IMG/VR virus record: IMGVR_UViG_3300044707_000321
Coordinates: 635 to 64,634 of that record
Source: a virus
Lineage: Duplodnaviria > Caudoviricetes
DNA length: 64,000 bases
Strand: one strand, 5' to 3'
How positions within the stretch are numbered: the first letter of the stretch is position 1; the number at the start of each line of letters is the position of its first letter. Below the pieces are notes generated by a model that was not told where the DNA came from, searched no databases, and saw only the letters and a list, made by a program, of their open reading frames with translations. Below are positions 31,005 to 53,500 of the stretch, piece by piece. A program made the translations under genes and the position numbers.

Positions 31005-31807
31005 AGAACGTCAATGTCTCCTTGTGGTGATGGGAAGCTGATCTCGTTCACCACCGGCAGGGATCCGTCCGGAACGTTGCGCCAATCCAGAACAAGGGCA
31101 GATGGGCGGGGTACACTGGACGGAACAACCTTGCGCCCGTATCTGGTTAGAAACTGCCATCCTCCGGTGATCCCCATAAGACCGGCCCCGTCCGAATACC
31201 ATCCCCCGACGTGCCTATGGCCCCTCAAGAAAACTGTTGGGATCTCATGGCCGGATCGGGCCGACTGCAAACGGGCATTCCCTAGCTCGGCCCCTAATGC
31301 GCTACTTTCGCTCACTGCCCGTCCTGCGGTAGAGATATGATGCGTTGCCGAAACCAGTGTGCCGGCAATCTTGAAAAGCCACTGGGGTAATGCCTTACCG
31401 GATCTGGCCTTTAGTTTTTTGGCAATATACGACTCTATATTGTGGGTATGACACTCTGTTCCCTGCGTCACCAAGACCTGACAAGCCTTGTTTGCCAGAG
31501 GCTCAAGGCATTCCACGGCCATGTTTGCGTGATCCTCGATTAACTGGGTTAGATTCTCGATTGAGTTATGATGCACTCCCTCGGTCAGATCCCCGTTTAA
31601 GAGCATCGCATACGGACTCTTTCCCCTGATCTTTGCAAACCGCTTCTGCATATCTAGCCACTTGTCCCATAGCCACGCATGATGAATGTTCCTGCCGAAA
31701 CCTATCTTGTTGCCCGTGACAGTCTCAGTCTCCGGAGGCATAAGTCCTACGACCGATCCACAATGGATGTCGGATAAAACCAGTAATAATCTTGGACGAT
31801 CACTCAT
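31001..31807 (-). CDS. Calcineurin-like metallophosphoesterase
   Basis: SDIHCG, NGDLTEG, GTECH, THH, RGHRH. Confidence 0.85.
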   Translation of the reverse strand: MSDRPRLLLVLSDIHCGSVVGLMPPETETVTGNKIGFGRNIHHAWLWDKWLDMQKRFAKIRGKSPYAMLLNGDLTEGVHHNSIENLTQLIEDHANMAVECLEPLANKACQVLVTQGTECHTHNIESYIAKKLKARSGKALPQWLFKIAGTLVSATHHISTAGRAVSESSALGAELGNARLQSARSGHEIPTVFLRGHRHVGGWYSDGAGLMGITGGWQFLTRYGRKVVPSSVPRPSALVLDWRNVPDGSLPVVNEISFPSPQGDIDVL

Positions 31808-32303
31808 GGAGGTAGTCCTTCACTTTGTAGATCTGCTTAACTAGGCGTCGTCTCCGATAGCATCCGTTCCCGTCCCTGCTTCCTTCTGGTGACGTATTCC
31901 CTTCGATGGTGAATACCCATTGACCTTCGTTTTTTTCGATAAGTCCCACATGTGCCACTCGTCGTAGGCTTTCGAACCAGATTCCAAACACTCCGGCAAC
32001 CGGAACGACTCCGGCAACTGGCCGTTTGCCTCCGGATACCCAACTAGGCGACCAACCAGACCTCGGTACAACCGCAGTACTGCTCTTGGAAAAAACGTAA
32101 TACAGGAATGAAGCGCACCAAGGATCCCCTTTAGAAAGCCCAACGGACTCAAGGAATGCTTCGACCTCAGGGCCATCATTCTTTCCTGTCGCTTCTTTAA
32201 CCCCAAGAAACGAACGTGCGAAATTAAGGACGTCCTCCCTTTCTCCTGCCCAACACGATCCACAGAGGGCCGTGACCACCATGATCCGGAGGAGTAATCC
32301 CAT
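31800..32303 (-). CDS. CHAP-domain endolysin with N-terminal signal
   Basis: GVKEATGKNDGPEV, PWCASF (Cys), HVG (His), TIEGNT; hydrophobic N-terminus from ATG 32303. Confidence 0.88.
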   Translation of the reverse strand: MGLLLRIMVVTALCGSCWAGEREDVLNFARSFLGVKEATGKNDGPEVEAFLESVGLSKGDPWCASFLYYVFSKSSTAVVPRSGWSPSWVSGGKRPVAGVVPVAGVFGIWFESLRRVAHVGLIEKNEGQWVFTIEGNTSPEGSRDGNGCYRRRRLVKQIYKVKDYLHE

Positions 32304-32304
32304 G

Positions 32305-32649
32305 TCATAACCCACTCCGGATTGAGAGAATTGCCCCAAAGAAGAGGGCAAATATAACGCAAACCGTCACAATTACCCGTGTGAGGGAGTTAATTGCTCT
32401 CCAATCCTGCAAGAACCGGCCTGAGTCCATGTGTTCGTCAATCGTCGGGAACTCCGAGCTAACGACGAAAAAGGCTAAGGCGATGGAAAGCAGAAATACG
32501 CATACTCCGAAAACAAGGGCATGGAGTACCCCGAAATCCGTAGATCCGGCACTCGGATCTAGGTTCTGGATAACCGGCCTTGAAACGACGAAGAGCGTTA
32601 GGGCCGATACCAATGCCCAAAACCCCTGAATCTTCCTTAGAAATCTCAC
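32305..32649 (-). CDS. Holin-like membrane protein (3 TM)
   Basis: Three hydrophobic segments; adjacent to the endolysin; GTG start overlapping the upstream stop. Confidence 0.6.
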   Translation of the reverse strand: MRFLRKIQGFWALVSALTLFVVSRPVIQNLDPSAGSTDFGVLHALVFGVCVFLLSIALAFFVVSSEFPTIDEHMDSGRFLQDWRAINSLTRVIVTVCVIFALFFGAILSIRSGL

Positions 32650-33263
32650 CAAGGGATCCCCACGAATTTGCGGATTACCCAAAAGATCGGCCCCTTCATG
32701 GCAAATAAGCCAACGACAATCAAAGCACCCCGCCAGAACCAGAGTTCTTTTAGTGCCTTCCTCTGCTTCCCCTTCCAGTAATCCACATTCTTATTCGCAT
32801 CGTTTAGCTCTTTAGTAACACGATCCAGTTCTTCAGTATTTGAGGCGCATACTTCCTTTGCCGATACAAGCTGGGCCTTAGCCTTATCAGCTAGCTTTTT
32901 GGCATCTTCTACTGTCTTTGCTTCCCCTACTTGTTCCAGATAAAAGTCCACACGGTTAAAGTCACCGGAAGATCTCTTGCTACTTGTTGTCGAACAGCCG
33001 ACAATGCATATCACAAAAAGGATGGCGACGGGCGGAAAGGTCTTAAACCTTGCAGTGTAGAACTTTTCAAGACGTTTGAGGGATGCGGTAAGTTTATTTA
33101 CGTGTACTTCACCTACTTCATCCGACGCACCGGCTTCTGCGTCTCTTAGCATCCTATGGAGGTGCATAATCACTGACCGAAGAAGTGTGTTTTCCTTGAG
33201 AACAAACGTCACAAGAGAGTTTAGATCCTGCTTCTTTTTGGCTTTCAAGGTTGTACTCCCCAA
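32646..33263 (-). CDS. Spanin-like protein (internal lipobox, coiled coil, C-terminal TM)
   Basis: AILFVICIVG/C lipobox at ~aa 90, helical region, C-terminal hydrophobic helix; in the lysis cluster. Confidence 0.55.
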   Translation of the reverse strand: MGSTTLKAKKKQDLNSLVTFVLKENTLLRSVIMHLHRMLRDAEAGASDEVGEVHVNKLTASLKRLEKFYTARFKTFPPVAILFVICIVGCSTTSSKRSSGDFNRVDFYLEQVGEAKTVEDAKKLADKAKAQLVSAKEVCASNTEELDRVTKELNDANKNVDYWKGKQRKALKELWFWRGALIVVGLFAMKGPIFWVIRKFVGIPW

Positions 33264-33502
33264 AACTTAGCCTTCACCCATTCATAGGTGAAGCTCAAGG
33301 CAAGCGAAGCAAAGGCAATAAAGCCAAGGGCATACGACTTGAGACGTTCTAGGGTGTCGATCCGGCCAGATATTCTTGACGACCATTCAGCCAATTCGGA
33401 GGTGTTCTTTTCAAGAACGGATTGAATCGTGATGATTCGCTCCTCTAAACGGGCCAACCTCTCACGAACGTCCGATATGCTCTTTCTATCGGTCGTACTC
33501 AT
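33245..33502 (-). CDS. Coiled-coil plus C-terminal TM protein (XhlA/holin-like)
   Basis: RERLARLEE...RIDTLE followed by a TM helix. Confidence 0.6.
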   Translation of the reverse strand: MSTTDRKSISDVRERLARLEERIITIQSVLEKNTSELAEWSSRISGRIDTLERLKSYALGFIAFASLALSFTYEWVKAKFWGVQP

Positions 33503-33503
33503 A

Positions 33504-34604
33504 TTAGTTTGTCGCAAGCGTTACGCCTCTTGTGACTAATGCCTTCGCACTTGCCCCAGCCTTAACAATAGTTGCCGTTCCAGCACCAGTAAGGCTTGCA
33601 GGACTGCTCATCGTATAGGTAAATTGATTTTCGTTAGTAACTGTGATTACGGCATATCTATTTGCAAATGTTAGGGTTGTTATTCCTGATATACGAAGAA
33701 CATCACCAGTTGAATATCCGTGACTAGCCAGACTTACAGTACAGGTTGTTCCTGACCCAACAAAGTTCGAGCCAGCAGTTGTGGTTGAACCTAGATTTGA
33801 TGGAGCAGATGAGGTTCCTGTTATAGTAACTGTTTTTCCAGTCGAATATGCAATAGTGTTGTTTGCTCCATCCATGTATGCTAGTGCCGAAAGAAGATTA
33901 TCAACGGAGGATTGGTTAAGTGCGATGCTTGTTAGACTTATATTTCCAAAGCAAGCCTTCCATGTTCCCAAGGTTGGCATTGTCAGCGTAGTCATCAATG
34001 GGGCAGTTATATTGATTGAACCTCCAACATAGATCAAAGAAGAAAAGTTTAATGAAGTTAATACACTAAAGGTAGCACTAAAACTAGCTAGTATAAATTG
34101 CAGTTTTGAGAGATCAAAGACAGTAAGGACTGAAAATGTTACGGCAGTGTTGAATTGCACAAACGCCATTAAAGATCCGATATTTATAGTAGTTAGCGAT
34201 GAAAAGTTCCCACCAAAAGAACCGATCTGATTTGTGTATTTTAGATTTGGGACATTAAGTGTTGTTAATGAAGATGTTGGAGATTGAAGAAGATTTCCAC
34301 CAATATAAACTAAATTTGGTGCTGAAATGCTTGTTATTGTGGATGGGATGGACGTAAAGAAATTTCCAATAATTCCTTCTAAATCAGAAAAAGTAAATGA
34401 GGTTGGGCTCAAGCCAGCAAGAGACCCATAGTAATCGATTGCATTTACCCACTTGCCACGACCAGTTCCAACCAGTTCTCCGTTAATTTGAAGATTTTGT
34501 GCAGGGATAATAAGAGTGGGTGGGAACGGAACAAGATTTGTCCCGCCAATTTCAACACTGATGGGTGATTGAGATATAAATGCTGATTGCTTAGTAAGAG
34601 GCAT
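33504..34604 (-). CDS. Putative receptor-binding/fibre-associated protein with LRR-like solenoid repeats
   Basis: LT.L....L.YIGG repeats; C-terminal TVSLASHGYSTGD.L.ISG beta module. Confidence 0.65.
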   Translation of the reverse strand: MPLTKQSAFISQSPISVEIGGTNLVPFPPTLIIPAQNLQINGELVGTGRGKWVNAIDYYGSLAGLSPTSFTFSDLEGIIGNFFTSIPSTITSISAPNLVYIGGNLLQSPTSSLTTLNVPNLKYTNQIGSFGGNFSSLTTINIGSLMAFVQFNTAVTFSVLTVFDLSKLQFILASFSATFSVLTSLNFSSLIYVGGSINITAPLMTTLTMPTLGTWKACFGNISLTSIALNQSSVDNLLSALAYMDGANNTIAYSTGKTVTITGTSSAPSNLGSTTTAGSNFVGSGTTCTVSLASHGYSTGDVLRISGITTLTFANRYAVITVTNENQFTYTMSSPASLTGAGTATIVKAGASAKALVTRGVTLATN

Positions 34605-36092: not shown

Positions 36093-38042
36093 TTATCCTA
36101 AGGCTATGCTGAAAGCTATAACTTCAGCGTCAAGGGCGTTTTGGGTTGGCAGTTGTGAAAGAGGAATAACTCCATTAACAAGGGTAGCGTAAGAACCTGA
36201 TTGTTGTTTTCCATCTAGTGCAGTTTGAAGTCCGGTAACATTAGAGATTGAGTGTGTGTGTGATGATAGTGCCTTTCCGTCTAAAGCTGTTTGTAGGCTT
36301 GTTACTTCGGAAATTGCATGACTATGGGCAGTTGGTGTTCGGGGATCTGAAAGCCTTGAATCATTCGTGACAACCGCAGTTCCAGTAATTGCCGACGGGG
36401 CTATGCCAGTTGCAGGAGCGTAGCTTCCAGATGCCTGTTTCCCATTCAAGGTGGTCTGCAAGTCCGTTACATCAGAAATTGTGTGAGAGTGAGAAGTCGG
36501 TGAAGCCCCAACATCCGAAGCAGTAAGCGTAACTGCACCAGTTTTTGTGTTTACTGAGGTTACTTCGCTGGGGCTTATTTCAATATACGCACTACCAGAC
36601 CATCTAAATGTTTTGTTGGTTGCAAGTGATACATAAATCTTTCCGGCCTCACCAGTTGCGGGAAAAGCCGAATTATTTGCGTATTCTAAAACATCATCGA
36701 CAAAGCTAGGGAGTTGGTCGGAAGGCACTTTTCCGCTAACTAGAGTTGCGTAAGCTCCAGAGGGTTGCGCTCCAATATCAGCTGGGGTTAAGGCATCCAC
36801 TCCGCCAGTTGCGTGAGTGGATTTATGAGCCGTAGGTGTCCTTGGATCTGAAAGACGTGAATCGTTTGTGACAACGGCGGTACCAGTAATTTCGGAAGGA
36901 GCGTGGGTGTGTGCGGACGGAGTAAATGAATTGGGCTTGTTAAGGATTTGTGCATCGCCAGAGACGGCGTTCCAATCCGCATTAACGTTGACCTCGGCTC
37001 CGCTTGCGACTCCATCTAGTTTTGCTTTATCGCTCGATGACATGGAGCCATCTGAAGTCGAGGTAGCTGTATATTCATGATCCGATTTCCATATCATTCC
37101 AGCATCAGTAATCATGCTGTAACCAGACCAGCGGTATGGAGTTAGGGGCGGTACATTCAGAGAACCCGCTGGGGTGAGGTTAATTCTTGCCGTTACCCCT
37201 GCTGGCGTAGTGAATGCAAATCTCAGCCTATCGCCAGCCCTTACCCCTGAGCTTGGAAAATAAATATTAATAGTTCCACTTCCGATGAACTCGACTGACC
37301 ATCTTTTATTTCTGGATGCCGTGAACCTGTTTTGAGTGTTTTCGGGCGCATTAGCATAAAGGGTATCTACCTGCTGGCCGAGAACCTCGCCAAGCTCGGG
37401 CAGATCAGCGTTGTTGTGTGTGTGAGTCGTTGGTTGCCTAGAATCTGAAAGCCTTGCATCGTTCGTGACAACTGCAGTACCAGTAATTGCCGATGGAGAA
37501 ATGCCAGTTGAAGGGGCATAGCTTCCAGATGCTTGCTTGCCGTCGATTGCAGTTTGCAAGCCCGTGACATCTGCGATTGCGTGGGCATGGGACAAAAGAG
37601 CTTTCCCATCTAAGGTAGTTTGCAGTCCTGTGACATCTGCTACGGCATGGGTATGCGTAAAGTCGGTTATATTCGACTTGGTGTGTGTGTGTGCCTTGGG
37701 ATCTCTTGTGTCTGAAAGCCTTGCATCGTTTGTCAAAACCAGATTCGCCGTGTTCGCAATTCCGTGGACTGATGTGGTTACAGAGTTGTGCGTTGTGATT
37801 TTTCCGTCAACCTCTGCGTCTAGTGAGGCTTGGTCTGGGAGATTGGCTACTGGTACTTTTGCGTTTGCGTCTAGCGGAGCGTACCCGTTAGCTACTCCCT
37901 TGTTTGCTTTGTCCTCCTTGTTTGCGATATTCTCAAGGGGTAAAGATGGCACCGCATAGGTGTCGTTAATGCTTGTTGGTACGGATGTATTAAGACTCGT
38001 ATTCACACTCGGATTGCTATTGCCAGTTGTATTTAGGCTCAT
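36093..38042 (-). CDS. Tail fibre protein with H-x-H repeats
   Basis: Repeated H.H.I.DVTGLQT.LDGK and TGTAVVTND.RLSD.RTP.AH; KGVANGYAPLD; GKVPSDQLPSFVDDVLEY...YIEIS. Confidence 0.9.
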   Translation of the reverse strand: MSLNTTGNSNPSVNTSLNTSVPTSINDTYAVPSLPLENIANKEDKANKGVANGYAPLDANAKVPVANLPDQASLDAEVDGKITTHNSVTTSVHGIANTANLVLTNDARLSDTRDPKAHTHTKSNITDFTHTHAVADVTGLQTTLDGKALLSHAHAIADVTGLQTAIDGKQASGSYAPSTGISPSAITGTAVVTNDARLSDSRQPTTHTHNNADLPELGEVLGQQVDTLYANAPENTQNRFTASRNKRWSVEFIGSGTINIYFPSSGVRAGDRLRFAFTTPAGVTARINLTPAGSLNVPPLTPYRWSGYSMITDAGMIWKSDHEYTATSTSDGSMSSSDKAKLDGVASGAEVNVNADWNAVSGDAQILNKPNSFTPSAHTHAPSEITGTAVVTNDSRLSDPRTPTAHKSTHATGGVDALTPADIGAQPSGAYATLVSGKVPSDQLPSFVDDVLEYANNSAFPATGEAGKIYVSLATNKTFRWSGSAYIEISPSEVTSVNTKTGAVTLTASDVGASPTSHSHTISDVTDLQTTLNGKQASGSYAPATGIAPSAITGTAVVTNDSRLSDPRTPTAHSHAISEVTSLQTALDGKALSSHTHSISNVTGLQTALDGKQQSGSYATLVNGVIPLSQLPTQNALDAEVIAFSIALG

Positions 38043-38776
38043 AATCCTCCTCTAATTCCTACCGAAAACTTGCATACGCAAGCGAGATTGGCCTTTTCTG
38101 ACTCAGTAGCGTTCTCGTTCGAGTTTGAATTGCTGTTCTGAACACTGTTGTCGTTCTTGTTGGTTGTTGCGTTAGTATTGCTATTTCTGTTCTCGTTCTC
38201 ATTCCGGTTCTCATTCCGGTTCTCATTCCTGTTCTCGTTCCGGTTCTCATTCCTGTTCTCGTTCCGGTTCTCATTCCTGTTCTCGTTCCGATTCTCATTC
38301 CTGTTCTCGTTCCGATTCTCATTCCTGTTCTCGTTCCGATTCTCATTCCTGTTCTCGTTCCGGTTCTCGTTCCGATTCTCGTTCTGATTCTCGTTCTTGT
38401 TTTCATTCCTGTTCTCGTTCCGGTTTTCATTCCTGTTCTCGTTCCGATTCTCATTCCTGTTCTCGTTCCGGTTTTCATTCCTGTTCTCGTTCCGATTCTC
38501 GTTCCGGTTCTCGTTCCGATTTTCATTTCTGTTCTCATTCTCGTTCCGGTTCTCATTCTTGTTCTCGTTCCGGTTCTCATTCTTGTTCTCGTTCCGGTTC
38601 TCATTCTTGTTCTCGTTCCGGTTCTCATTCCTGTTCTCGTTCCGGTTCTCATTCCTGTTCTCGTTCCGGTTCTCATTCCTGTTCTCGTTCCGGTTCTCAT
38701 TCCTGTTCTCATTACGGTTCTCGTTCTGATTGGAATTAAGTGTCTCATCTTTTAGTACGTAGTCATTGCCATCCAT
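38039..38776 (-). CDS. (ENRN)n repeat protein, 245 aa
   Basis: GAGGA SD 7 nt before ATG; ATGA overlap with the fibre gene; repeat variation is mostly synonymous in this frame. Confidence 0.8.
   Translation of the reverse strand: MDGNDYVLKDETLNSNQNENRNENRNENRNENRNENRNENRNENRNENRNENRNENKNENRNENKNENRNENKNENRNENENRNENRNENRNENRNENRNENRNENRNENRNENRNENRNENRNENKNENQNENRNENRNENRNENRNENRNENRNENRNENRNENRNENRNENRNENRNENRNENRNENRNENENRNSNTNATTNKNDNSVQNSNSNSNENATESEKANLACVCKFSVGIRGGL
38183..38722 (-). repeat. 12/24-bp coding tandem repeat, about 45 ENRN units (180 aa)
   Basis: GAGAACCGGAAT/GAGAACAGGAAC-type units. Confidence 0.95.
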
Positions 38777-38787
38777 ATATTTATCCT

Positions 38788-39648
38788 CTAGTTCCCCATT
38801 GTGTTGTCAGCTTGACCGTAGGTGTATTTGTTGCTTTGGCTTTCGCTCTTTGAACTAGAACTCGAACCAGAACTCGAACCAGAACTTGAACCAGAACTTG
38901 AACCAGAGCTAGAGCTAGAACTCGAACCAGAACTCGAACCAGAACTTGAACCAGAACTTGAACCAGAGCTAGAGCCAGAACTTGAACCAGAGCTAGAGCC
39001 AGAACTAGAACCAGAGCTAGAGCCAGAACTAGAACTCGAACCAGAACTCGAACCAGTGGTTGAACCAGTGGTTGAACCAGTGGTCGAACCAGTAGTAGAA
39101 CCAGTGGTTGAACCAGTGGTCGAACCAGTAGTAGAACCAGTAGTAGAACCGGTAGTAGAACCAGTGGTCGAACCAGTAGTAGAACCGGTGGTCGAACCAG
39201 TAGTAGAACCGGTGGTCGAGCCAGTAGTAGAGCCAGTGGTTGAACCAGTAGTAGAACCGGTGGTCGAGCCAGTAGTAGAGCCAGTGGTTGAACCAGTAGT
39301 AGAGCCAGTGGTTGAACCAGTAGTAGAACCGGTGGTCGAGCCAGTAGTAGAACCGGTGGTCGAGCCAGAATTAGATCTTACTGTACTTGCGCTTTCGGAA
39401 CTTGCCTGACTTTGTGTTCCGCTAGTATTCCCGCTTTGACTTTGACTCCCAGCCCCTGTTTTAGAAGTTGTTTTCTGTATAGCATAAGACGAGTCTTGCC
39501 AGCCCCTTACTAGGTTCATCTCGAAATCTACCTTTTCGGGCAGTTCAGCGATTGCGTACTGCCTTGCCCCAACAATACCAACCTTAATCTGCTGAATCGT
39601 TTCAGTGATTAGGTTATCCAGTTCTGAAAGAGGGATAATGTTTTCCAT
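38788..39648 (-). CDS. (GSTT)26-(GSSS/SSSS)17 repeat protein, 286 aa
   Basis: Unique N-terminal helix and strand followed by tetrapeptide arrays; third-position synonymous variation; starts 1 nt after the upstream stop. Confidence 0.8.
   Translation of the reverse strand: MENIIPLSELDNLITETIQQIKVGIVGARQYAIAELPEKVDFEMNLVRGWQDSSYAIQKTTSKTGAGSQSQSGNTSGTQSQASSESASTVRSNSGSTTGSTTGSTTGSTTGSTTGSTTGSTTGSTTGSTTGSTTGSTTGSTTGSTTGSTTGSTTGSTTGSTTGSTTGSTTGSTTGSTTGSTTGSTTGSTTGSTTGSTTGSSSGSSSSSGSSSGSSSGSSSGSSSGSSSGSSSGSSSGSSSGSSSSSSSGSSSGSSSGSSSGSSSSSKSESQSNKYTYGQADNTMGN
38851..39366 (-). repeat. 12-bp coding tandem repeat: 26 GSTT units (39055-39366) and 17 G/S tetrads (38851-39054)
   Basis: GGYTCNACYACY and GGYTCNAGYTCT units. 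Confidence 0.95.
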
Positions 39649-39649
39649 T

Positions 39650-40501
39650 TTAGTAGCCCCTCGCAGACTTCACCTTATTGGCCGGAGAAGCCATGTCATT
39701 AGACTCAAGTTGGCCTAGCCCGATTATTGCGTTTTCGTATCTTTTCATGACTCCATCTTTAGCAATCTCAGAGTTCCATAGTTCGGACATGGCTAGTTCG
39801 CCTTCGCAAATAGGCAAAAGGAATGACGCAACATGACTATTCCGGACTGGAATCGTTGTTTGAGCCGAAAGATCGGTGATAACCAACTGGGAAGGCTCAA
39901 GTTCTACTGTGATTGAAACAATAAAAGATGTCTCCGGAAGCGGGTGAACACGCAGATAAAATGGAGGAAACGCCCCGCCAATAGATCCGACTGCTTCTAG
40001 TTTATAGGCTGAAGGCTTTCCGACTGCCGTTGGGCTAATCCAGATTTCAGCATCTTCCCTTTTTAAGACGTTTCCGGAGATTGTTGGGTGAGTGACAACC
40101 CTAGCAACACCGGATGGAAGTTGAATTGCATCCCCGTAAATCGTCCCATTAAATGTCCCAGTACCCCCGCCCCAGTTTGCTAGAAATTGGTTTGTGCTAA
40201 CAATTTGCTGAGGATCGTTCTTTTCTGAAAACAAAACCGACGATCCCTCTTGGCTTGTGGTCGCAGTGTAACCGGTGAAGTTCTGACTTCCGTTTGTAAG
40301 TCCGAAGGAGGCAGTCATAGGGGCCGGAAGCGTCACACTTGCGCTAGCATGCCGATAGTTTGGAGGAGTCCTTAGGTGATAAGCCGAAAGGCCGGAGTTG
40401 ATAATATCAACGAACCGGATCGCATCCTCGACCGTAAGCAAGGCCACGTCCTTAGCCGGCGTAAATCGAACGAGACGCTGGGCTAGCTGGGCTGAGTTCA
40501 T
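39650..40501 (-). CDS. Putative head-tail connector/adaptor protein
   Basis: Position after the capsid gene; IN.GL...GKP..Y...LRVHPLP...V.VE pattern shared with the neighbour. Confidence 0.6.
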   Translation of the reverse strand: MNSAQLAQRLVRFTPAKDVALLTVEDAIRFVDIINSGLSAYHLRTPPNYRHASASVTLPAPMTASFGLTNGSQNFTGYTATTSQEGSSVLFSEKNDPQQIVSTNQFLANWGGGTGTFNGTIYGDAIQLPSGVARVVTHPTISGNVLKREDAEIWISPTAVGKPSAYKLEAVGSIGGAFPPFYLRVHPLPETSFIVSITVELEPSQLVITDLSAQTTIPVRNSHVASFLLPICEGELAMSELWNSEIAKDGVMKRYENAIIGLGQLESNDMASPANKVKSARGY

Positions 40502-41184
40502 TTTGCCTTAGCCTCCATGGGCATAACCCTCGGTGATGTTCCGGAAAGCACTGCGAGAGCATTTTGGTAGTCCTGCTCCACGAACGATTCACGTCCTTTA
40601 TCCACGAAGAACCTAGTGCCTAGACCCAGCTTACGGACTACCGGAAGGAGTATTGCCTCATAGTTATGAGGCACTGCGATAACGGTTTGTGAGGCGTAAT
40701 CAGAGTAATAGTACCGTGTAGGTTGCTTAATCACGTCCACTGAAATACTTGCGGTAGATGTCGGGGCCGGAACGGTCAGGATCCGTAGCCTTACCGAATC
40801 TGCCGTTGCCTGACGAAGCTCTTCCAAGAAGTAGAATTGCGGTGTTCCGGATAAAATCGTGGGAGAATCCCCGAAAAGCAGTCCAAAACGTTCGTATGCT
40901 CCCCTGCTAGAAATCTGCAAAAGCGGTTGATTTGTCGAAGCTACCCTGACCGGCCCGATAACTGTTTGAATGTCATCATCCAGTGAGGCAACCCCTGAGC
41001 TATTTACAGTAACGGTAATAGTTTCACGGGCAAAATAGGACATCTCTTTTGCGTTTGACCAAATGAGTTGCATGGCCGAATTAAGGGTATTTACGGTACG
41101 ATCCCTCAGGAAAGCCGTTACGTTTGTCTCAGCTTCGAATCCCCAGTTACCCCAAAGATCGTCAAAAACGGTTTTAACTGTCAT
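40498..41184 (-). CDS. Putative head-tail adaptor protein
   Basis: LN.AMQ...GTPQFY...L.I..VPAP....V pattern of podoviral adaptors. Confidence 0.65.
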   Translation of the reverse strand: MTVKTVFDDLWGNWGFEAETNVTAFLRDRTVNTLNSAMQLIWSNAKEMSYFARETITVTVNSSGVASLDDDIQTVIGPVRVASTNQPLLQISSRGAYERFGLLFGDSPTILSGTPQFYFLEELRQATADSVRLRILTVPAPTSTASISVDVIKQPTRYYYSDYASQTVIAVPHNYEAILLPVVRKLGLGTRFFVDKGRESFVEQDYQNALAVLSGTSPRVMPMEAKAK

Positions 41185-44164: not shown

Positions 44165-44602
44165 TTAAAAAGATTTTATTGCCCAATCGTAAGGGATGTT
44201 TTTATCGTCAAACGGCCTCCGGTACTCGTCCGGATTTGCGTAGTCGAATGGTTGATCAACGGTATTGATAACGACCGCTTCCTTCGTCCCGCATGCCATG
44301 AAACCATGCCATAGGTTAGGAGGTATTGTGATCCGGTATGGGCTATTCTCCCCAATGAAATACGTCTCTGTTTTGCCTGTTTTCTCGTCATAGATACCTA
44401 CCTTTAGAGTCCCACTGACGCATACAAACTGATCCGTCTGCTTTTTATGGAAGTGCCACGCCTTCACTATGTTGGGATTGCACGTAGTCATATATACTTG
44501 CCCGAAACTTGTGAATCCATGCTCATCGTTTCTGAGCATTTCCATGAGCCGGCCCCTGCCGTCCTCGATAACCTTAAGAGGCGTCTTTAGGCACAGGCTC
44601 AT
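44165..44602 (-). CDS. rmlC: dTDP-4-dehydrorhamnose 3,5-epimerase (cupin)
   Basis: D.RG.L.E, KAWHFH..Q.D.F.CVSG, IPP.LWHGF, IPYDW. Confidence 0.85.
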   Translation of the reverse strand: MSLCLKTPLKVIEDGRGRLMEMLRNDEHGFTSFGQVYMTTCNPNIVKAWHFHKKQTDQFVCVSGTLKVGIYDEKTGKTETYFIGENSPYRITIPPNLWHGFMACGTKEAVVINTVDQPFDYANPDEYRRPFDDKNIPYDWAIKSF

Positions 44603-45638: not shown

Positions 45639-47573
45639 TTAGAGGGCATTCCCTTTATAATGTGGTCTGCCAAACACAAGATATTCGCTTGCCGGTGCAA
45701 CACCGATCGGGACATAGCTATTTTTAATGGTGATATTAAGATCTTTTGATCCGCTTATTTTGCCTTCTTGTTTGTATGTAGCCCTTTCTTGGCATGGCCC
45801 GATGGTTGGCAATGTTGCACCAAAGTTAGGATTTATTCCAAGGTATGTAGTGCCCGTATTCTCAAAGTTCTTTGTTTCCTGAAGTTTCAATTCAAGGGTA
45901 CTCCTGCTTCCTTCCGGACTTCTCATCTTCGTTGTTACCGATACTTTGGTGTTGTTGATTGTACTCGCAGTTTGGAACTTTTGACGGTTAGCGAAGTTCA
46001 GGATATCAATGCACGTAGCATCCCAACATCTGAAAGTATTTGCATCAATTTCTTCTCGTAAGACTAGATTTGCGTCAAATGCTCTATTTTTGGGGTCTGT
46101 GAAATAATACCCGACTCTGTCATGTATATATTCTTGCGCTAGGTATCCAACAGGAGTTTTATAGGTATTGTAATGATCAATCTGCTCGTTACCACCTCTT
46201 GTTTCGCCCAAGGTTTGTCCATTAAAGCCAGAATAGGAAGCTGTTTGCTTAAATTTTTGTGTTCCTCCAGCTATTTTATAACCATACGGATAAACAGATC
46301 CAGTCGTCTGCATGGTACCACCGTATGAGTTTGTCGTTGGCACTACACCCGTCACTGACAAATCTATACAAGTACCCGATGCTGTAGTTGTTTTCCAATA
46401 TCCACTTTCGTAAGTTTCTAATTTTGTTGTTATTGTTGGCTTCTCATCATCATAGTCCCGATAAGGATAAGATCTCCTACCATTCCGAGTTGTGTAGGAA
46501 ATACCTGTTAGCGTTATCTTTCTCGTTGCGTCCACAAGATTTGTGATTGATAACTGCCCCTGAACTGTCATAATTCGGCTTGTTTTTCTTGCAATCGGCG
46601 TATGGCTAATAACTGCAGTTCTTACGCTTGAATCGTCTTGAGTTATTGGATTTGTAACACCGAATATATTGAATGGAACCCTGCCTCTATGTCCAATGAG
46701 GAAATCTTCTCTCATACTAAACTCAGCAACAGAGTATTCTAAAGTTTGAAACCCGTGAAAACCACCAGCAACAACTACAAAATTTTGTGGCTTAGTCTTG
46801 CAATTTGAGATATCTGGCGCAATTATAGTCGTATTAACTACAGCCGAAGTGCTTACCATTTTGTTATTTTTTACCGTATATCCGTTGGCTTTTGTTGTTG
46901 TTGAATATGTGGGTATGCCACTGTAGTACCCCGTAACGTAATAAGTTCCAGAACCCGTGCTGGATTCAGTATTATAGTTCACTTGAGTACCCGCTTTTAC
47001 AGAGTTAGTCGCTCCATAACTTCTCATATATTTTTCTTTCGGCCATTCAATCTGACTCCAGTTCTCATTTTGCGTAGCCGTATTCCCGTATGCAATCATT
47101 CCACCTTCACTTTTGACTAAATCATTCGGTGCGTCCCATCTGTAGGAACTTAAGTACCTCGCTTGATAGCGTAATTTTGAACCTTTTCCAACCGTAACTT
47201 CCCACTGTTGGCTGGTTTGACCATTTGCGCCAGCCTGATTATTCCGTGGACGGCTATCTGGTTCTTCAAGGAAAGGCCAAGGCATAAAATAAATGCCATT
47301 GCCTACCTCACTCATTGATACCGACTGTGCGTATCCTCCTGTTAGTTGTGCGCCCACCAATTTATCTACTTTTTGTGGAGGCATTTGAGACGATGCCCCA
47401 CCTCCTCCTTCGCCACGGTTTGTTTGACCCCTATCGTAACCTTCGACCTTTATACCATTCCAATAAAAAACAATATCACCACTCTTATTCGATGAATTAT
47501 TTATTTTATTATTTACATAATTTGTACTAACTTGATCATGATAAAACTTTATCGGCCAAATTGTGAATGCCAT
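45639..47573 (-). CDS. Thr/Gly/Tyr-rich hypothetical protein, probably virion-associated (644 aa)
   Basis: Long beta-rich ORF between portal and scaffold; AT-richer than the core genes. Confidence 0.6.
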   Translation of the reverse strand: MAFTIWPIKFYHDQVSTNYVNNKINNSSNKSGDIVFYWNGIKVEGYDRGQTNRGEGGGGASSQMPPQKVDKLVGAQLTGGYAQSVSMSEVGNGIYFMPWPFLEEPDSRPRNNQAGANGQTSQQWEVTVGKGSKLRYQARYLSSYRWDAPNDLVKSEGGMIAYGNTATQNENWSQIEWPKEKYMRSYGATNSVKAGTQVNYNTESSTGSGTYYVTGYYSGIPTYSTTTKANGYTVKNNKMVSTSAVVNTTIIAPDISNCKTKPQNFVVVAGGFHGFQTLEYSVAEFSMREDFLIGHRGRVPFNIFGVTNPITQDDSSVRTAVISHTPIARKTSRIMTVQGQLSITNLVDATRKITLTGISYTTRNGRRSYPYRDYDDEKPTITTKLETYESGYWKTTTASGTCIDLSVTGVVPTTNSYGGTMQTTGSVYPYGYKIAGGTQKFKQTASYSGFNGQTLGETRGGNEQIDHYNTYKTPVGYLAQEYIHDRVGYYFTDPKNRAFDANLVLREEIDANTFRCWDATCIDILNFANRQKFQTASTINNTKVSVTTKMRSPEGSRSTLELKLQETKNFENTGTTYLGINPNFGATLPTIGPCQERATYKQEGKISGSKDLNITIKNSYVPIGVAPASEYLVFGRPHYKGNAL

Positions 47574-50550: not shown

Positions 50551-53500
50551 CTATTCCTTCAGTAAATCTTTTAACGGGATTCCGAACTGCTCTCTTCTTG
50601 CGTCGGTTCTAGCCTTCTGGATTGCGCTAGAGATTTTGTCCTTTGCCTCAGGGGTTTGTCCCATGCCTAACAATGGAGCTACGGCCATCTTCGCCTTTTC
50701 ACCAGCAGACTTGGTAAATCTGCTATACTGTTCAGGAGTCATCTTCTTGTCGTTGCCTGTCAGCGTCTTGTACGATGCCGTTGGCCTAGATACATAGAAC
50801 GGATCGGAAGGATTATTGCGGTTATACTTCATCATGAACTGGTCAAGTTTTGAAGGCTCAGGCGCATCCTCGAAAGTAATTGGACTGATTGCCCTGATAA
50901 GTGCGTTTCCACGCTTCTTAATCTCGACTCCCTCAGGAGTCCTTAGCGGGGGAGGCGCAAGCATTGGAGCAGGGAGAACGGAGTAGGCTATCCCCTTTAG
51001 GGTGTCTTTTCCGGTCTTGGTGTCCCGCACGTAAGGATCCATCTCTCTGAGGGGTTGGCGAATAAGATTGGGAACAAGTACTGTACCAAGTTGTCCTGCT
51101 GTCCATGTCCCAACGTTGTTCTGTCCGTTGAGGAGGTTGCCAAGATCATCCATCCCCCTCATGTATGTCTTACTTTCAACCGCTTGCATTAAGTAGGACT
51201 GGAACATCGCCAATACTTCTGCCGGCGGGAGTCCTTGCTGGCCCTTCTTGATTGCCCGAATCATATCCACGGTAGTACCTAGAGCAGTGGCAAGCGGATC
51301 GATGCGAGCGTAGCTAAACTGCTTGGATCCGACCCGAATCGTCATGGCTGGGAGAGTCCTGTTGGCTAGATCCCTCTCCCCTTGTCCGGTCAGCTTGGAA
51401 GGTTTAGATCCTGAGATTACGATGTATTTGTCATCGTCGTCATCGTCTCCCTCGACCATTCCCCATATCACGGCAGTCACCATGGATGAAACCAGTTGAT
51501 TCGAGATGTTCTCAATTACTTCGGGTTTCATGTCTGAGGATAAGCTGATCCCATCCTTGTCGAACCTTATGCCTCTTCCGATAGAGATCAGGGTGTCCGG
51601 AAGTCCTAGTGGGCTTTTCTTAACTCCCTCTTTCAAGAGGTTAAATGGTGTCCGAATGAATGGGAAAATTAGCTGGAAGGGCCGGAGTAGCATGCGACCA
51701 ACCTCTGACTCTGGACGGGCCTTCACGAACTTGTTGAGCGCACGGGCAGAAGCCCCGACAACATCCATAACGTTCTTTGATTCCCCGATGGTTGGAAGCT
51801 CGGTTTGGAAGGTGTACGCATACGCTTTCTCCGATGCCTTAATCCAAGCATCGCTCCCTGCCGTATTCACTTGCTCCCTAATAAACCTTTCCATCTCCTG
51901 ACCGGTAAGCCCGTTTGCCTTGCCCATCCGGTAGGCTTGTGCGCCAACCTCCATTTGTGCCGTCATTGTCTTTACAAAATCGTCAGTCGCCAAAAGAAGC
52001 CGGCTTGGGATTCGTATGAATCTGCCTTTTGCACCAGAAATACTTACTCCCCTTGTAGTAACGCCACCCTGCCTATCAAGTTCACCCAAGAGTTTGATCG
52101 GTTGATCCAGAATGTCCTCTTCAAAGAAGCCTGATTCGGTGTACCAAGTGGCAACCGCATTTGACCATGCCCTACTGATGGCCGGAGAGATACCCGCTAC
52201 CAAGGGCTTGAACTCACCGAAAGAAGCAGATTTAGGATCGTTGAAAGCTAGGTTCACCATAGACTGAATGCCTCTTCCGACTGTCATTTCATAGACCGAA
52301 AACGGCCCTGAAGATAAGTTGGCGATGAATGTCTTGGCTCCCGATAGGATCGAATTAACCCACATTTCAACCAGAATGTCGTCCATTGATGATTCTACTG
52401 TCTGGATCGCTCTTGCCACACGCTTGACCTGAATTGCATCCGTAATATCGAAAGTGTATCCATCTTCAGTAAGTTCTGGACGTGGGAAGTTTGGCCCAGC
52501 GGGAGCGACCTTAGCCCTGCGACGCTTAAACATGTTGGGTTTGGTGTATGCGTCATCTAGCCCCATGGCCGAAAGGATCCGGTCTGCTTGACGCAAGGCA
52601 TCGGCCTCAGAAACGTTTTGATTCCCGTAGGATGCGCTTGCGCCTAGCTCTTCCGTTGCCAAGTCCTCGACTGTTGCCCCACGACGGGTCTTAGGCATGA
52701 GTTTTTGGCGAATCTCTTCCGCTACGGACTGCCTGAGTGCTTCGATTTCCTCGGCCTTGAGTCCGGTGATTCGCTTGATCTTCGAAACGTCGTTCCTCTG
52801 TTGGATCATCCGAATTGCCTTAACTTCCCTTGGGTTAAGCCCCTTTAAGGTGTTGTCAATCATGCTGGATGTCTTGAGTGAAACTTGAACTTCACCGGAG
52901 AAGAGATCGGCGAGCGTAACCCCCCATTTACCAAGGGCAGTTTCAATCTTGGCTAGCCTCTTGGCAGTTTCACTTTGGAGAATGTCGTTCGAATCTGGTT
53001 CTTTCCGAACCCTCTTTAGTTCCTCTTCCGTAGTCGGATTCGATTCGTTTAGGAGTTGGGCCTCAAGCTGTTGGATCCTCCGGCTTTTCTCGGCAGGAGA
53101 GATGGCATACTTAATCTTTCGCTCGATTTCTTTCGTCGGGTTAAAGATTAAGTCTGTCAGGAATGCTTTGTGTCGTTCTGCCGGTGTCTTGTAGTCGTCG
53201 ATTCTGGCCCTGAGTGATCTTGCGACCTCTGATCCGGTCTGCCGGTAGGCGTAGGCCAAGATAGAAGCCTCTCGTTGAGCCTTCTCGTCGCCCGAAGTCA
53301 TAGCCCTACGTGCCAGCTTTTCAACAAGCAACTTGGCGGATCGCACCTCTACGTCGGTAGGCAGTCCGGCTTGAGATGGATCCACTGCCCTTTCGAGCAA
53401 CATGCGCTTTACGCCTTCCTCGTCGTTTGCGAGTAGCGCACGGGCCTCGGCCATCACGATAACGTCAGGCCGGCGTTGCAGGATGTCTTTTCGGGCCTCA

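What the first reader, a model, noticed from the sequence alone, without database searches (positions are those of the whole stretch)
38039..39648. Two adjacent length-matched tetrapeptide-repeat genes that look like the two strands of one split giant beta-hairpin
Seen: gene A = short helix + strand (ELDNLITETIQQIKVGI...PEKVDFEMNLV) followed by 239 aa including (GSTT)26 and 17 G/S tetrads (172 aa). Gene B = 232 aa including about 45 ENRN units (180 aa) followed by a strand (CVCKFSV). Both arrays have period 4, similar lengths and degenerate S/N/T-alternating flanks next to the folded ends, giving a mirror arrangement. Synonymous variation suggests protein-level selection. ENRN puts Asn on one face and alternating E/R on the other. 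The folded ends together recall the small Trypco2-like pattern (helix, V.F.h.V strand, hairpin, KF.V strand), from memory only. Inference: the two chains pair antiparallel as a ~230-residue ribbon (about 75 nm if fully extended) that may oligomerise into a tube or needle, for example a DNA conduit or ruler in a phage with no tape measure gene. The genes lie between head-tail adaptors and fibres.
Basis: partly seen in the sequence, partly recalled or inferred. Interest (0 to 1): 0.85.

Follow-up and report, generated by a model that had tools for sequence, protein, structure and literature searches.

The report
Length-locked repeat protein pair in phage
Two neighbouring genes of a freshwater phage encode repeat-filled proteins whose lengths change in lock-step across dozens of related phages, which suggests they zip together into one long thin filament of a kind not described before.

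Summary
Gene A (38788-39648, minus strand, 286 aa) has (GSTT)x26 plus 17 G/S tetrads. Gene B (38039-38776, minus strand, 245 aa) has a 179-aa ENRN array. In 31 distinct A/B pairs from 81 loci, arm lengths of 65-244 and 66-236 residues correlate at r=0.985. A minus B is exactly 41 in 6 of 7 pairs of the window's clade and exactly 47 in 6 of 6 pairs of another clade. Repeat types swap between the two genes in close relatives. A third gene (A2) in 16 relatives tracks the same length (r=0.998 with B). One close pair shows a 6-aa indel in all three proteins. Relatives of the window's clade lack the RNA hairpin, and other clades show no DNA similarity between arrays, so these do not explain the matching. 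A arms that are not repeats argue against an assembly artefact. No Pfam, PHROG or PDB family matches, and Trypco2 is not supported. Best reading: the chains pair in register as a long, probably antiparallel beta-ribbon attached at the phage neck. Orientation, fold, virion presence and function are inferred.

The parts
38788..39648 (-). Gene A, 286 aa (stop at 38788-38790). Its start lies 1 nt after the stop of the upstream 283-aa adaptor-fold gene.
   Evidence: homologues in 37 loci
39469..39648 (-). Conserved N-terminal domain of A (residues 1-60): helix 7-31, then the motif LPEKVDFEMNLV (residues 36-47, with F42 as anchor).
   Evidence: alignment A2 of 16 sequences, P37 invariant, R29 and F42 at 90% or more; AF2 helix 7-31
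39367..39468 (-). Degenerate S/T/G/Q flank of A (residues 61-94).
39055..39366 (-). (GSTT)x26 array of A (residues 95-198).
   Evidence: 26 identical peptide units, 7 DNA variants
38851..39054 (-). GSSS block of A (residues 199-266) with one 2-residue slip at residues 207-208. Its DNA unit is about 65% identical to the reverse complement of B's array.
38791..38850 (-). Conserved C-terminal tail of A (residues 267-286, ..Y.YGQAD..MGN).
38777..38787 (-). 11-nt spacer with an AGGA ribosome-binding site between A and B. B is in another frame.
   Evidence: the spacer is 11 nt in most of the window's clade, 4 nt in L001, and ranges from -4 to 18 nt in other clades
38039..38776 (-). Gene B, 245 aa. 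Its stop overlaps the start codon of the fibre gene (ATGA).
38726..38776 (-). Conserved N-terminus of B (residues 1-17, MDGNDYVLK..).
38189..38725 (-). ENRN array of B (residues 18-196), with Asn at every second position and 2-residue slips near residues 80-81 and 194.
38042..38188 (-). C-terminal flank and conserved end of B (residues 197-245), including CVCKFSV (38060-38080, with F237 as anchor).
   Evidence: alignment A4: F invariant..FSVPI.. in 10 clades
39650..40501 (-). Upstream neighbour, 283 aa, with a podophage head-to-tail adaptor fold.
   Evidence: AF2 mean pLDDT 83.7; Foldseek hits GP4 8jov_2 at E 4e-6, plus B2, VP1, A4, Pa223, DEV, N4 and SU10 tails
40498..41184 (-). 228-aa protein with a weak SU10_adaptor match.
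   Evidence: Pfam PF24175 E 5e-4, below the curated cut-off
36093..38042 (-). Downstream 649-aa fibre protein with phage tail repeats. Its C-terminal part is variable among relatives.
   Evidence: Pfam PTR E 6e-32 and many PHROG tail-fibre hits; variable in L001-L007
38520..39060 (-). Window-specific long imperfect RNA hairpin: the GSSS block of A pairs with the first part of B's ENRN array.
   Evidence: MFE -208.7 kcal/mol, z -11.8, 0 of 100 shuffles as good; relatives give z -1.5 and -2.7

Best explanation
Genes A and B encode subunits of one elongated hetero-oligomer. In many relatives a third gene, A2 (a paralogue of A), contributes a further subunit.

Proposed anatomy:
- Each chain contributes one long polar 'arm'. 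The arms lie side by side in register, most likely as an antiparallel beta-ribbon with A (and A2) running one way and B the other.
- One end is clasped by A's N-terminal helix-plus-strand together with B's C-terminal ..FSVPI.. strands.
- The other end is closed by A's C-terminal tail and B's N-terminus. The whole looks like a giant hairpin cut at its turn.
- Pairing would be through the backbone and through general polarity or charge (acidic A arms, basic B arms; or a neutral GST arm with a zwitterionic ENRN arm). The arm sequence is therefore free to drift, expand and even swap between genes.
- Any length change in one chain must be matched in the others.

Proposed function:
- The genes are translationally coupled to two neck (adaptor-type) genes. 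In the window's clade they are also coupled to a tail-fibre gene.
- I therefore read the product as a thin virion appendage attached at the neck, such as a stalk, rope or whisker, or a scaffold for fibres. Its reach would be about 20-80 nm if fully extended and differs between strains.

Status of each step:
- Shown: the length locking and the family.
- Inferred: physical pairing, beta geometry, antiparallel sense, virion location and function.
For: 1. Length locking.
- 31 distinct complete pairs came from 37 of 81 loci examined. r(armA, armB)=0.985, slope 0.97, arms 65-244 and 66-236 residues.
- A minus B by clade: 41 in 6 of 7 pairs of the window's clade, over five length classes (A = 184, 222, 230, 238, 286). 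47 in 6 of 6 pairs of the MSFT/MSYT clade (A = 207-267). 46-51 in the MGYQ clade.
- Shuffling partners within a clade is as tight in 86 of 20000 shuffles (window's clade) and 3 of 20000 (MGYQ).

2. A third chain. In 16 distinct triples, r(A2,B)=0.998 and A2 minus B is 59-67.

3. Local compensation. In the close pair L032/L051, each of A, B and A2 has one 6-aa indel, at A 124-130, B 123-134 and A2 121-133.

4. Swapping.
- Window and L007: A = GST type, B = ENRN.
- L001, L002, L005, L006, L010: A = ENRN, B = GTST.
- L003: A = TETK/TDTN type.
- A minus B is 41 in the complete pairs of all three types except L005; L002's B is cut by the contig end.

5. Not explained at the nucleic-acid level. Arrays of A and B share DNA similarity only in the window's clade. 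In eight loci of other clades the best similarity is <=0.44. The RNA hairpin is window-specific.

6. Not an assembly artefact. In several clades the A arms are not repeats, yet lengths match exactly. The longest exact repeats in the window's clade are 32-94 nt.

7. Beta-like periodicity. B arms have 92-99% small residues on one alternating face in 20 of the 23 pairs tabulated, over arms of 83-209 residues in those pairs. In the window, Asn is at 90 of 90 alternate positions.

8. Charge. In clades other than the window's, A arms are usually acidic and B arms basic, for example L024 at -38/+30.

9. Conserved ends and coupling. See alignments A2 and A4. Genes are tightly coupled: 1-nt gap, AGGA spacer, ATGA overlap.

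10. Neck context.
Against: - No structure of the pair exists; the complex job did not run.
- A and A2 arms show no period-2 pattern in several clades. They look like disordered acidic linkers. The ESM Atlas model of one short A has pLDDT 0.40.
- Two clear outliers exist: L020/L005 at 238/173 and L049 at 165/96.
- Offsets drift by 2-5 residues in the MGYQ clade.
- Orientation is unsettled. The L032/L051 indels fit both an antiparallel register and an N-flush parallel register. The window's mirrored slip could come from the inverted DNA/RNA repeat. Indel mapping in L048/L037 and in L001/L022/L010 fitted no register, probably because of alignment ambiguity.
- There is no evidence that the proteins are in virions.
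- In the L035 and L047 clades B is followed by lysis genes rather than fibres, and A2 sits inside that cassette.
- In L084 the pair lies before the adaptor.
Confidence: 0.55

Rival explanations
1. The arms are intrinsically disordered tethers, or a fuzzy acid-base complex. They connect two small end complexes (A-N with B-C, and A-C with B-N) without regular hydrogen-bonded pairing. Lengths would be similar only because both ends are joined.
For: - A and A2 arms lack periodicity in several clades.
- Composition is typical of disordered regions.
- The Atlas model of one short A is low-confidence.
- A and B arms carry opposite net charges.
Against: - Slack tethers do not need equal lengths to the residue. 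Yet A minus B is identical in 6 of 7 and 6 of 6 pairs of two clades, over five length classes each.
- A 6-aa indel is matched in all three chains.
- B arms keep one alternating face 92-99% small in 20 of 23 pairs tabulated.
Confidence: 0.2
2. The proteins are threaded or ejected components. They would be a conduit, leash or ruler that lies extended inside the tail or portal channel and is delivered into the cell envelope.
For: - This is a podophage without a tape measure.
- Polar, unfolded chains could pass a narrow channel.
- The genes sit in the structural module.
Against: - Arm length varies from 65 to 244 residues among phages with related capsid, portal and neck proteins. This is hard to reconcile with a fixed channel or periplasm width.
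- No membrane or pore-forming segment is evident by eye in either sequence. No transmembrane predictor was run.
Confidence: 0.08
3. The proteins are accessory factors of lysis or of another late non-virion function. In many relatives B is followed by a small membrane protein, A2, a spanin-like lipoprotein, a holin-like protein and an endolysin.
For: Gene order in L036, L032, L047, L057 and L049. Homologues of the spanin-like, holin-like and endolysin genes are found by tblastn.
Against: - A and B have no signal peptide, lipobox or membrane segment evident by eye. No predictor was run.
- In the window's clade one or more fibre genes separate B from the lysis genes, three of them in the window itself.
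- The tight coupling is to the adaptor genes.
Confidence: 0.05
4. The selected feature is nucleic acid (an RNA or DNA hairpin between inverted arrays), or the matching is an artefact of assembling repeats.
For: - Window RNA fold z is -11.8.
- The GSSS unit is about 65% identical to the reverse complement of the ENRN unit.
- Logan contigs cannot span the arrays.
- The L005 outlier looks like a collapse within a GTTT block.
Against: - Relatives with direct-repeat arrays have no hairpin (z -1.5 and -2.7), yet keep A minus B at 41.
- In eight loci of other clades the arrays show no DNA similarity between them.
- In several of those clades the A arms are not repeats, yet they match exactly.
Confidence: 0.04

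Closest known systems
Needle domain of the T4 long tail fibre tip (gp37)
   Same: It is a long antiparallel beta structure in a phage fibre. Each chain runs out and back, so the two halves must match in length. [quoted passage not shown] 2010. I did not read that paper.
   Different: - gp37 is a single chain forming a trimer, with His-x-His iron sites (recalled). The window's arrays contain no His.
- It is not low-complexity and not split into genes.
- There is no sequence similarity.
[quoted passage not shown]
   Same: It is an extended, roughly 300-angstrom rope-like polypeptide at a podophage neck or nozzle. It runs along the tail and serves as a docking site for fibre dimers (PMC13730344: abstract, section 9).
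   Different: - It is one 620-aa chain with nozzle domains and an Ig domain.
- It has no repeats, no partner chain and no reported length variation.
- No homology to gp39 itself was tested.
Long tail fibres of Kuravirus SU10 (gp12 and gp13)
   Same: - Gene position is directly after the adaptor gene. SU10 fibres dock on the adaptor ring (passages of PMC9509320).
- The window's portal hits the SU10 portal Pfam model. The 228-aa neck protein hits the SU10 adaptor model weakly, and the 283-aa neck protein resembles the SU10 tail structure by fold.
   Different: The SU10 fibres are ordinary trimeric fibre proteins. A and B gave no fibre-family hit.
Trypco2 domain (Pfam PF19631)
   Same: The consensus pattern is recalled only: a helix, then a hydrophobic strand, then a hairpin. 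The ends of A and B loosely resemble it.
   Different: - There is no HMM match in any of the 7 A N-terminal segments scanned, in the window's own end pieces, or in the genome.
- The domain would be split over two proteins.
- Trypco2 is described in bacterial conflict systems (PMC7159879, search listing only), not in virions.
Silk-type (Gly/Ser-x)n antiparallel beta-sheets and single-layer beta-sheets such as OspA (recalled, not searched)
   Same: They show dipeptide periodicity with one face of small residues. They are polar, backbone-driven sheets without a hydrophobic core.
   Different: They are not phage proteins and are not heteromeric length-matched chains.
Length-setting proteins with repeats (phage tape measure proteins, injectisome ruler YscP; recalled)
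   Same: Repeat expansion or contraction changes a physical length.
   Different: Those are single, largely helical chains that measure another structure. Here two or three chains measure each other.

Membership tests
Trypco2 (PF19631) | Match to the Pfam model at or above its 24.2-bit cut-off | tested here: not met
   - No hit at E<=10 for the window's A N-terminus, B C-terminus or the whole proteins.
- No hit for any of 7 A or A2 N-terminal segments (six from relatives, one from the window).
- A PF19631 search of the whole 64.6-kb genome found 0 candidates.
Trypco2 (PF19631) | One compact domain of about 78 residues in a single chain | tested here: not met
   - The two putative halves lie in different proteins, separated by arms of 65-244 residues.
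- There is no fused A-B ORF in 81 loci.
- None was seen among 44 A-like proteins of 124 aa or more (9 of them read).
Trypco2 (PF19631) | Co-folding of the A N-terminus with the B C-terminus into the Trypco2 fold | not testable with these tools
   The only complex job was not run by the tool. The monomer model of A residues 1-70 shows only helix 7-31.
T4 gp37-type beta needle | His-x-His metal-binding repeats along the needle (recalled feature) | tested here: not met
   The arrays of the window contain only G, S and T (gene A) and N, E, R, K and Q (gene B).
T4 gp37-type beta needle | Out-and-back antiparallel strands of equal length | tested here: inconclusive
   Equal length is shown. The antiparallel sense is favoured but not proven.
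Collagen-like phage fibre | Gly at every third residue | tested here: not met
   The periods are 4 and 2, not 3.
Phage tail fibre or neck appendage (generic) | Gene in the tail module next to neck and fibre genes | tested here: met
   The two adaptor-type genes and the fibre gene flank A and B. In other clades the downstream neighbours are lysis genes.
Phage tail fibre or neck appendage (generic) | Protein present in the virion | not testable with these tools
   No cultured relative was found: 7 distant hits in the phage collection for the capsid protein and none for the DNA.
Tape measure or ruler protein | A single long helical chain whose length sets the length of a tube | tested here: not met
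   The genome has podophage-type portal and neck genes. The arms have a non-helical composition. There are two or three chains rather than one.

The most novel reading that the evidence does not exclude
A, B and A2 form a register-locked molecular rope that is largely indifferent to its own sequence.

- It would be a two- or three-chain polar beta-ribbon, 20-80 nm long, held only by backbone pairing and by a small clasp at each end.
- Its length would be re-tuned in evolution by concerted indels in separate genes.
- In the window's clade the arm material appears to come from one 12-nt DNA repeat. That repeat is read in two frames (ENRN and GT[S/R]T) and on the opposite strand (GSSS).
- This may explain how the repeat types came to be swapped between genes.
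- The rope would set the reach of fibres or whiskers at the phage neck.
Probability: 0.4. Interest if true: 0.9.

Novelty: categorically new. Interest (0 to 1): 0.8.

Why it matters
- Residue-exact length covariation between separate, hypervariable, low-complexity proteins is a strong and unusual signature of physical pairing. I found no described example (paper searches found nothing relevant).
- If the ribbon model is right, this is a natural heteromeric fibre. Its length would be programmable simply by repeat number. Its sequence would be almost free. That is of interest for phage tail architecture, for understanding how low-complexity regions can be ordered, and as a design principle for protein nanofibres.
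- It also gives a name and a testable role to a gene pair or triplet found in a broad group of uncultured freshwater podophages. These genes have no Pfam or PHROG family.
- It shows one DNA repeat serving as raw material for different peptides through changes of frame and strand.

Tried and rejected
**Complex prediction.** I submitted the short natural pair of L007. The tool answered NOT FOLDED because one chain resembles a eukaryotic protein. This says nothing about binding.

**Reads.**
- 24 runs hold part of the stretch. Seven hold half or more of the words, and all seven are lake-water metagenomes.
- In the 4 runs laid, Logan contigs break inside both arrays.
- Only the flanks and the A/B junction (38681-38881, no differences in X1 and X7) are confirmed.
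- No contig spans an array, so repeat counts remain unverified.

**Searches that found nothing.**
- A residues 1-92 in the 5.8-billion-protein set: no hit.
- The 283-aa neighbour: only 2 clusters.
- Profile of the A N-terminus against PDB sequences: nothing meaningful, best E 0.025 to a designed protein.
- ESM Atlas: no usable lead.
- PHROGs for 9 A, B and A2 proteins of other clades: 1 marginal hit, E 0.004.
- Genome-contig scan with the L035 neighbour: none. No host could therefore be inferred.

**Fusion by read-through or frameshift: rejected.** The spacer is 11 nt in most of the window's clade, 4 nt in L001, and ranges from -4 to 18 nt elsewhere, so the frame relation is not conserved.

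**Fused natural forms.** None in 81 loci. None among 44 A-like proteins of 124 aa or more; the 318-aa one is an A2.

**Indel mapping to decide orientation.** Only L032/L051 gave clean indels. L048/L037 and L001/L022/L010 fitted no register and are probably alignment-ambiguous.

**Direct opposite-charge pairing in the flush mirror register.** I saw no consistent enrichment. In L024, E falls opposite S and T opposite R at offset 0, and opposite charges line up only at odd offsets.

**Rows dropped.** Of 96 loci plus the window, 16 were skipped:
- L002 and L004, cut by contig ends.
- L005-L007 and L012-L019, the same contigs as other loci.
- L008, L009 and L011, identical to L001, L003 and L010.

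Of the 81 examined, 44 showed no complete pair. L021, L026 and L031 have A running off the contig. Most of the others have capsid identity of 46% or less and were screened only by motif and low-complexity filters. L033 and L053 were read by eye.

**Papers.** They might list virion proteins of SU10 or A1002.

Full report
**What is there.**
- The window is 64,000 of the 64,634 bases of one complete virus record with direct terminal repeats.
- Almost all genes are on the minus strand.
- A has a 60-residue N-terminal part, a degenerate S/T/G/Q flank, 26 identical GSTT units (7 DNA variants, all synonymous), 17 G/S tetrads and a 20-residue tail.
- B has a 17-residue head and a 179-residue array with Asn at 90 of 90 alternate positions (E 46, R 38, K 4, Q 1 at the others). 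It ends in a 49-residue tail containing CVCKFSV.
- Tandem Repeats Finder confirms the arrays.
- The genes are tightly coupled. A starts 1 nt after the stop of the upstream gene. An 11-nt AGGA spacer separates A and B. B's stop overlaps the start of the next gene.

**Context.**
- The structural module reads, in order of transcription:
  - a giant DarB-like protein of at least 4456 aa
  - an SU10-type portal
  - several unknown genes
  - a cupin-type sugar isomerase
  - the capsid protein
  - a 95-aa protein
  - a 228-aa protein with a weak SU10_adaptor hit
  - a 283-aa protein
  - A and B
  - a 649-aa fibre with PTR repeats
  - two more large proteins
  - a 90-aa membrane protein
  - a spanin-like lipoprotein, a holin-like protein and an endolysin
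.
- The 283-aa protein was modelled at mean pLDDT 83.7. It matches head-to-tail adaptor chains of podophages GP4, B2, VP1, A4, Pa223, DEV, N4 and SU10.
- A and B therefore follow two neck-type genes and precede a fibre gene.
- Neither A nor B, nor their unique ends, hit Pfam or PHROGs.

**Close relatives.**
- The upstream 283-aa gene retrieved 7 viral contigs and 4 metagenome contigs at 94-96% identity. Two of the metagenome contigs duplicate viral ones.
- Lengths A/B are:
  - window 286/245
  - L007 184/143
  - L001 222/181
  - L003 230/189
  - L006 230/189
  - L010 (same pair as L011) 238/197
  - L005 238/173
- The difference is 41 in 6 of 7 distinct pairs, across five length classes.
- L005 has the same A as L010 and lacks 24 residues in a GTTT block of B. 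This may be an assembly collapse or a real intermediate.
- The repeat types are exchanged between genes:
  - window, L007 (and L004's A): GST-type in A, ENRN in B
  - L001, L002, L005, L006, L010: ENRN in A, GTST in B
  - L003: T-E/D-T-K/N/G in A, GTST/GSSS in B
.

**Distant relatives.**
- The capsid protein has 524 relatives at E<=0.001 in the representative library.
- An alignment of 24 of them retrieved 80 viral loci.
- In these, the same two-gene module is recognisable by its ends:
  - A: helix, then ..LPE.hDFEh..
  - B: ..DD.G.h.FSVPI...P..
- The arms, in contrast, are unrelated in sequence:
  - (TETG)n with (SRSS/SRSG)n
  - (G-x)n with (S-x)n
  - non-repetitive acidic S/T/G/D/E stretches with (S-x)n
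  - short T/S-rich stretches
- Altogether 81 loci were examined. Of these, 37 hold a complete pair, giving 31 distinct pairs.
- Arm lengths are measured from the conserved Phe of A to its end, and from B's start to its conserved Phe. They range over 65-244 and 66-236 residues, with r=0.985 and slope 0.97.
- A minus B within clades:
  - MSFT/MSYT clade: 47 in 6 of 6 (A = 207, 257, 261, 261, 265, 267)
  - MGYQ clade: 51, 49, 47, 51, 49, 51, 46
  - 196/145 group: 51 in 4 of 4
- Shuffling partners within a clade reaches the observed tightness in 86 of 20000 trials (window's clade) and 3 of 20000 (MGYQ).
- Outliers are L020 (the L005 contig) and L049 (165/96).

**A third chain.**
- In 16 distinct triples a paralogue of A, called A2 here, lies a few hundred bases after B. 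It follows a membrane protein of about 90 aa and precedes the spanin-like gene.
- Its length tracks both partners: r=0.992 with A and 0.998 with B, and A2 minus B is 59-67.
- In L049, A2 and B match while A is the odd one out.
- In the closely related pair L032/L051 (A 227 of 267 columns identical, B 208 of 220), each of A, B and A2 carries one 6-residue indel. They lie at A 124-130, B 123-134 and A2 121-133, allowing for repeat ambiguity.

**What does not explain it.**
- *Assembly artefact.* In several clades the A arms are not repeats, yet they match B exactly. In the window's clade the longest exact repeats are 32-94 nt.
- *Nucleic-acid pairing or copying.*
  - In the window the GSSS block is about 65% identical to the reverse complement of B's array.
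  - The RNA of 38520-39060 folds into a very long imperfect hairpin (-208.7 kcal/mol, z -11.8).
  - In relatives, however, the two arrays are direct repeats read one base out of frame. GTST is GGA ACN AGY ACN, and ENRN read +1 gives R-T-G-T. Identity is about 66-71%.
  - Those relatives have no such hairpin (z -1.5 and -2.7).
  - In eight loci of other clades the arrays share no DNA similarity (<=0.44).
  - Length matching holds in all of these cases.
- *Fusion by read-through or frameshift.* The variable spacer excludes it.

**How it most likely works.**
- Equal length to the residue, in chains whose sequences are otherwise free, means each residue of one chain has a partner in the other. That describes an extended, in-register assembly.
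- The two-residue periodicity fits beta strands. B arms have 92-99% small residues on one alternating face in 20 of the 23 pairs tabulated. The window's B has Asn at every second position.
- A's extra 41-51 residues equal its N-terminal helix. The conserved strand-like motifs sit at A's N-proximal end and at B's C-terminus. This is what an antiparallel arrangement predicts.
- In the ungapped mirror register of the window, the only internal slip of A (an extra SS at 207-208) lies exactly opposite an extra EN in B (80-81). Gly then always faces Asn and the next residue faces Arg. The same phase is seen in L007 and in the swapped type.
- This point is weakened by the window's inverted repeat, which would produce the same mirror symmetry.
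- The L032/L051 indels fit the antiparallel register (74-80 versus 66-77 residues from the anchors). They also fit an N-flush parallel one. They exclude a C-flush parallel one.
- In clades other than the window's, A arms are usually acidic and B arms basic. In the window's clade one arm is uncharged and the other zwitterionic.
- I did not find direct opposite-charge pairing in the flush register.

**Function.**
- This part is inference from gene order.
- The genes are coupled to two neck proteins. In the window's clade they are also coupled to a hypervariable fibre.
- The nearly four-fold variation in arm length among phages with related capsid, portal and neck proteins fits a free appendage better than a ruler or conduit. 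Candidates are a stalk, whisker, or rope that carries or positions fibres.
- Known analogues of the principle:
  - the out-and-back beta needle of T4 gp37 (passage in PMC9659904)
  - the 300-angstrom rope-like fibre dock of A1002 gp39 (PMC13730344, section 9)
  - SU10 fibres, which dock on the adaptor and are encoded right after it (PMC9509320 passages)
- Against a tail role: in the L035 and L047 clades the downstream neighbours are lysis genes, and in L084 the pair precedes the adaptor.

**Trypco2.**
- PF19631 is the Trypco2 model.
- It gave no hit on the window's proteins or end pieces, on 7 N-terminal segments, or on the genome.
- AlphaFold2 of A residues 1-70 gives a helix at 7-31 and an unassigned segment over the motif.
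- The resemblance remains a recollection, not a finding.

**Limits.**
- The complex prediction was not run by the tool.
- Reads could not span the arrays.
- No cultured relative exists in the phage collection. The capsid protein gave 7 distant hits at 24-26% identity, and the DNA gave none.
- No host could be inferred.
- Physical pairing, beta geometry, orientation, stoichiometry, virion location and function are all inferences.

Noticed in passing
window 50551-63999 (minus strand): A giant ORF of at least 4456 aa runs off the window end. It has a DarB-like antirestriction match (phrog_10089, 1466 bits), a ParB-like N-terminal domain, SNF2/helicase and methyltransferase-like parts, and a sigma-70 region 2 match. 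It lies directly upstream of the portal gene and is a candidate injected multi-enzyme protein.
   Followed up: partly
window 38520-39060 (minus strand): The RNA folds into a very long imperfect hairpin between the GSSS block of gene A and the start of gene B's array (MFE -208.7 kcal/mol, z -11.8). It spans the A stop, the ribosome-binding site and the B start. It is absent from relatives L007 and L006. It may affect translation of B or be a by-product of an inverted copy.
   Followed up: partly
window 38189-39054 and loci L001, L006, L007, L010: One 12-nt DNA unit (about GGAACNAGWACN) appears to encode three different peptides. ENRN comes from one frame, GT(S/R)T from the next frame in relatives, and GSSS from the opposite strand in the window. 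The window's GSTT block uses a different encoding.
   Followed up: partly
L036 12973-13719, L032 13201-14022 and 14 other distinct triples: A third gene, A2, is a paralogue of A with an acidic arm and a Cys-containing C-terminus. Its length tracks A and B. It is absent from the window's clade.
   Followed up: yes
window 44165-44602 (minus strand): A cupin/FdtA/WxcM-like sugar isomerase (Pfam hits, E from 5.5e-16 to 2.5e-4) sits inside the head module. It is conserved in the close relative L022 and not found in more distant clades. It hints at glycan chemistry. I did not examine whether the Ser/Thr-rich arms are glycosylated.
   Followed up: no
window 45639-47573 (minus strand): A 644-aa protein between the portal and capsid genes is only 36% identical to its counterpart in L022. 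Neighbouring genes there are 65-98% identical. It is a hypervariable protein and a candidate receptor-binding protein.
   Followed up: no
window 32646-33263, 32305-32682, 31800-32351, 33245-33517 (minus strand): A lysis cassette. It holds a spanin-like ORF with an internal lipobox-like IVGC and a C-terminal membrane segment (features of a unimolecular spanin, judged by eye), a holin-like 125-aa protein and an endolysin (PHROG endolysin hits). It is preceded by a conserved 90-aa coiled-coil protein with a C-terminal membrane segment.
   Followed up: partly
window 39650-41184 (minus strand): Two adaptor-type genes lie in tandem. The 228-aa protein has a weak SU10_adaptor Pfam hit. The 283-aa protein has an adaptor fold by Foldseek with an inserted beta domain. 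This suggests a two-ring neck.
   Followed up: partly
L005/L020 (B gene) and L049: Two pairs break the length rule. L005 has B 24 residues short, within a GTTT block. L049 has A about 20 residues too long, while its A2 and B match. These are either assembly errors or natural mismatched intermediates.
   Followed up: partly
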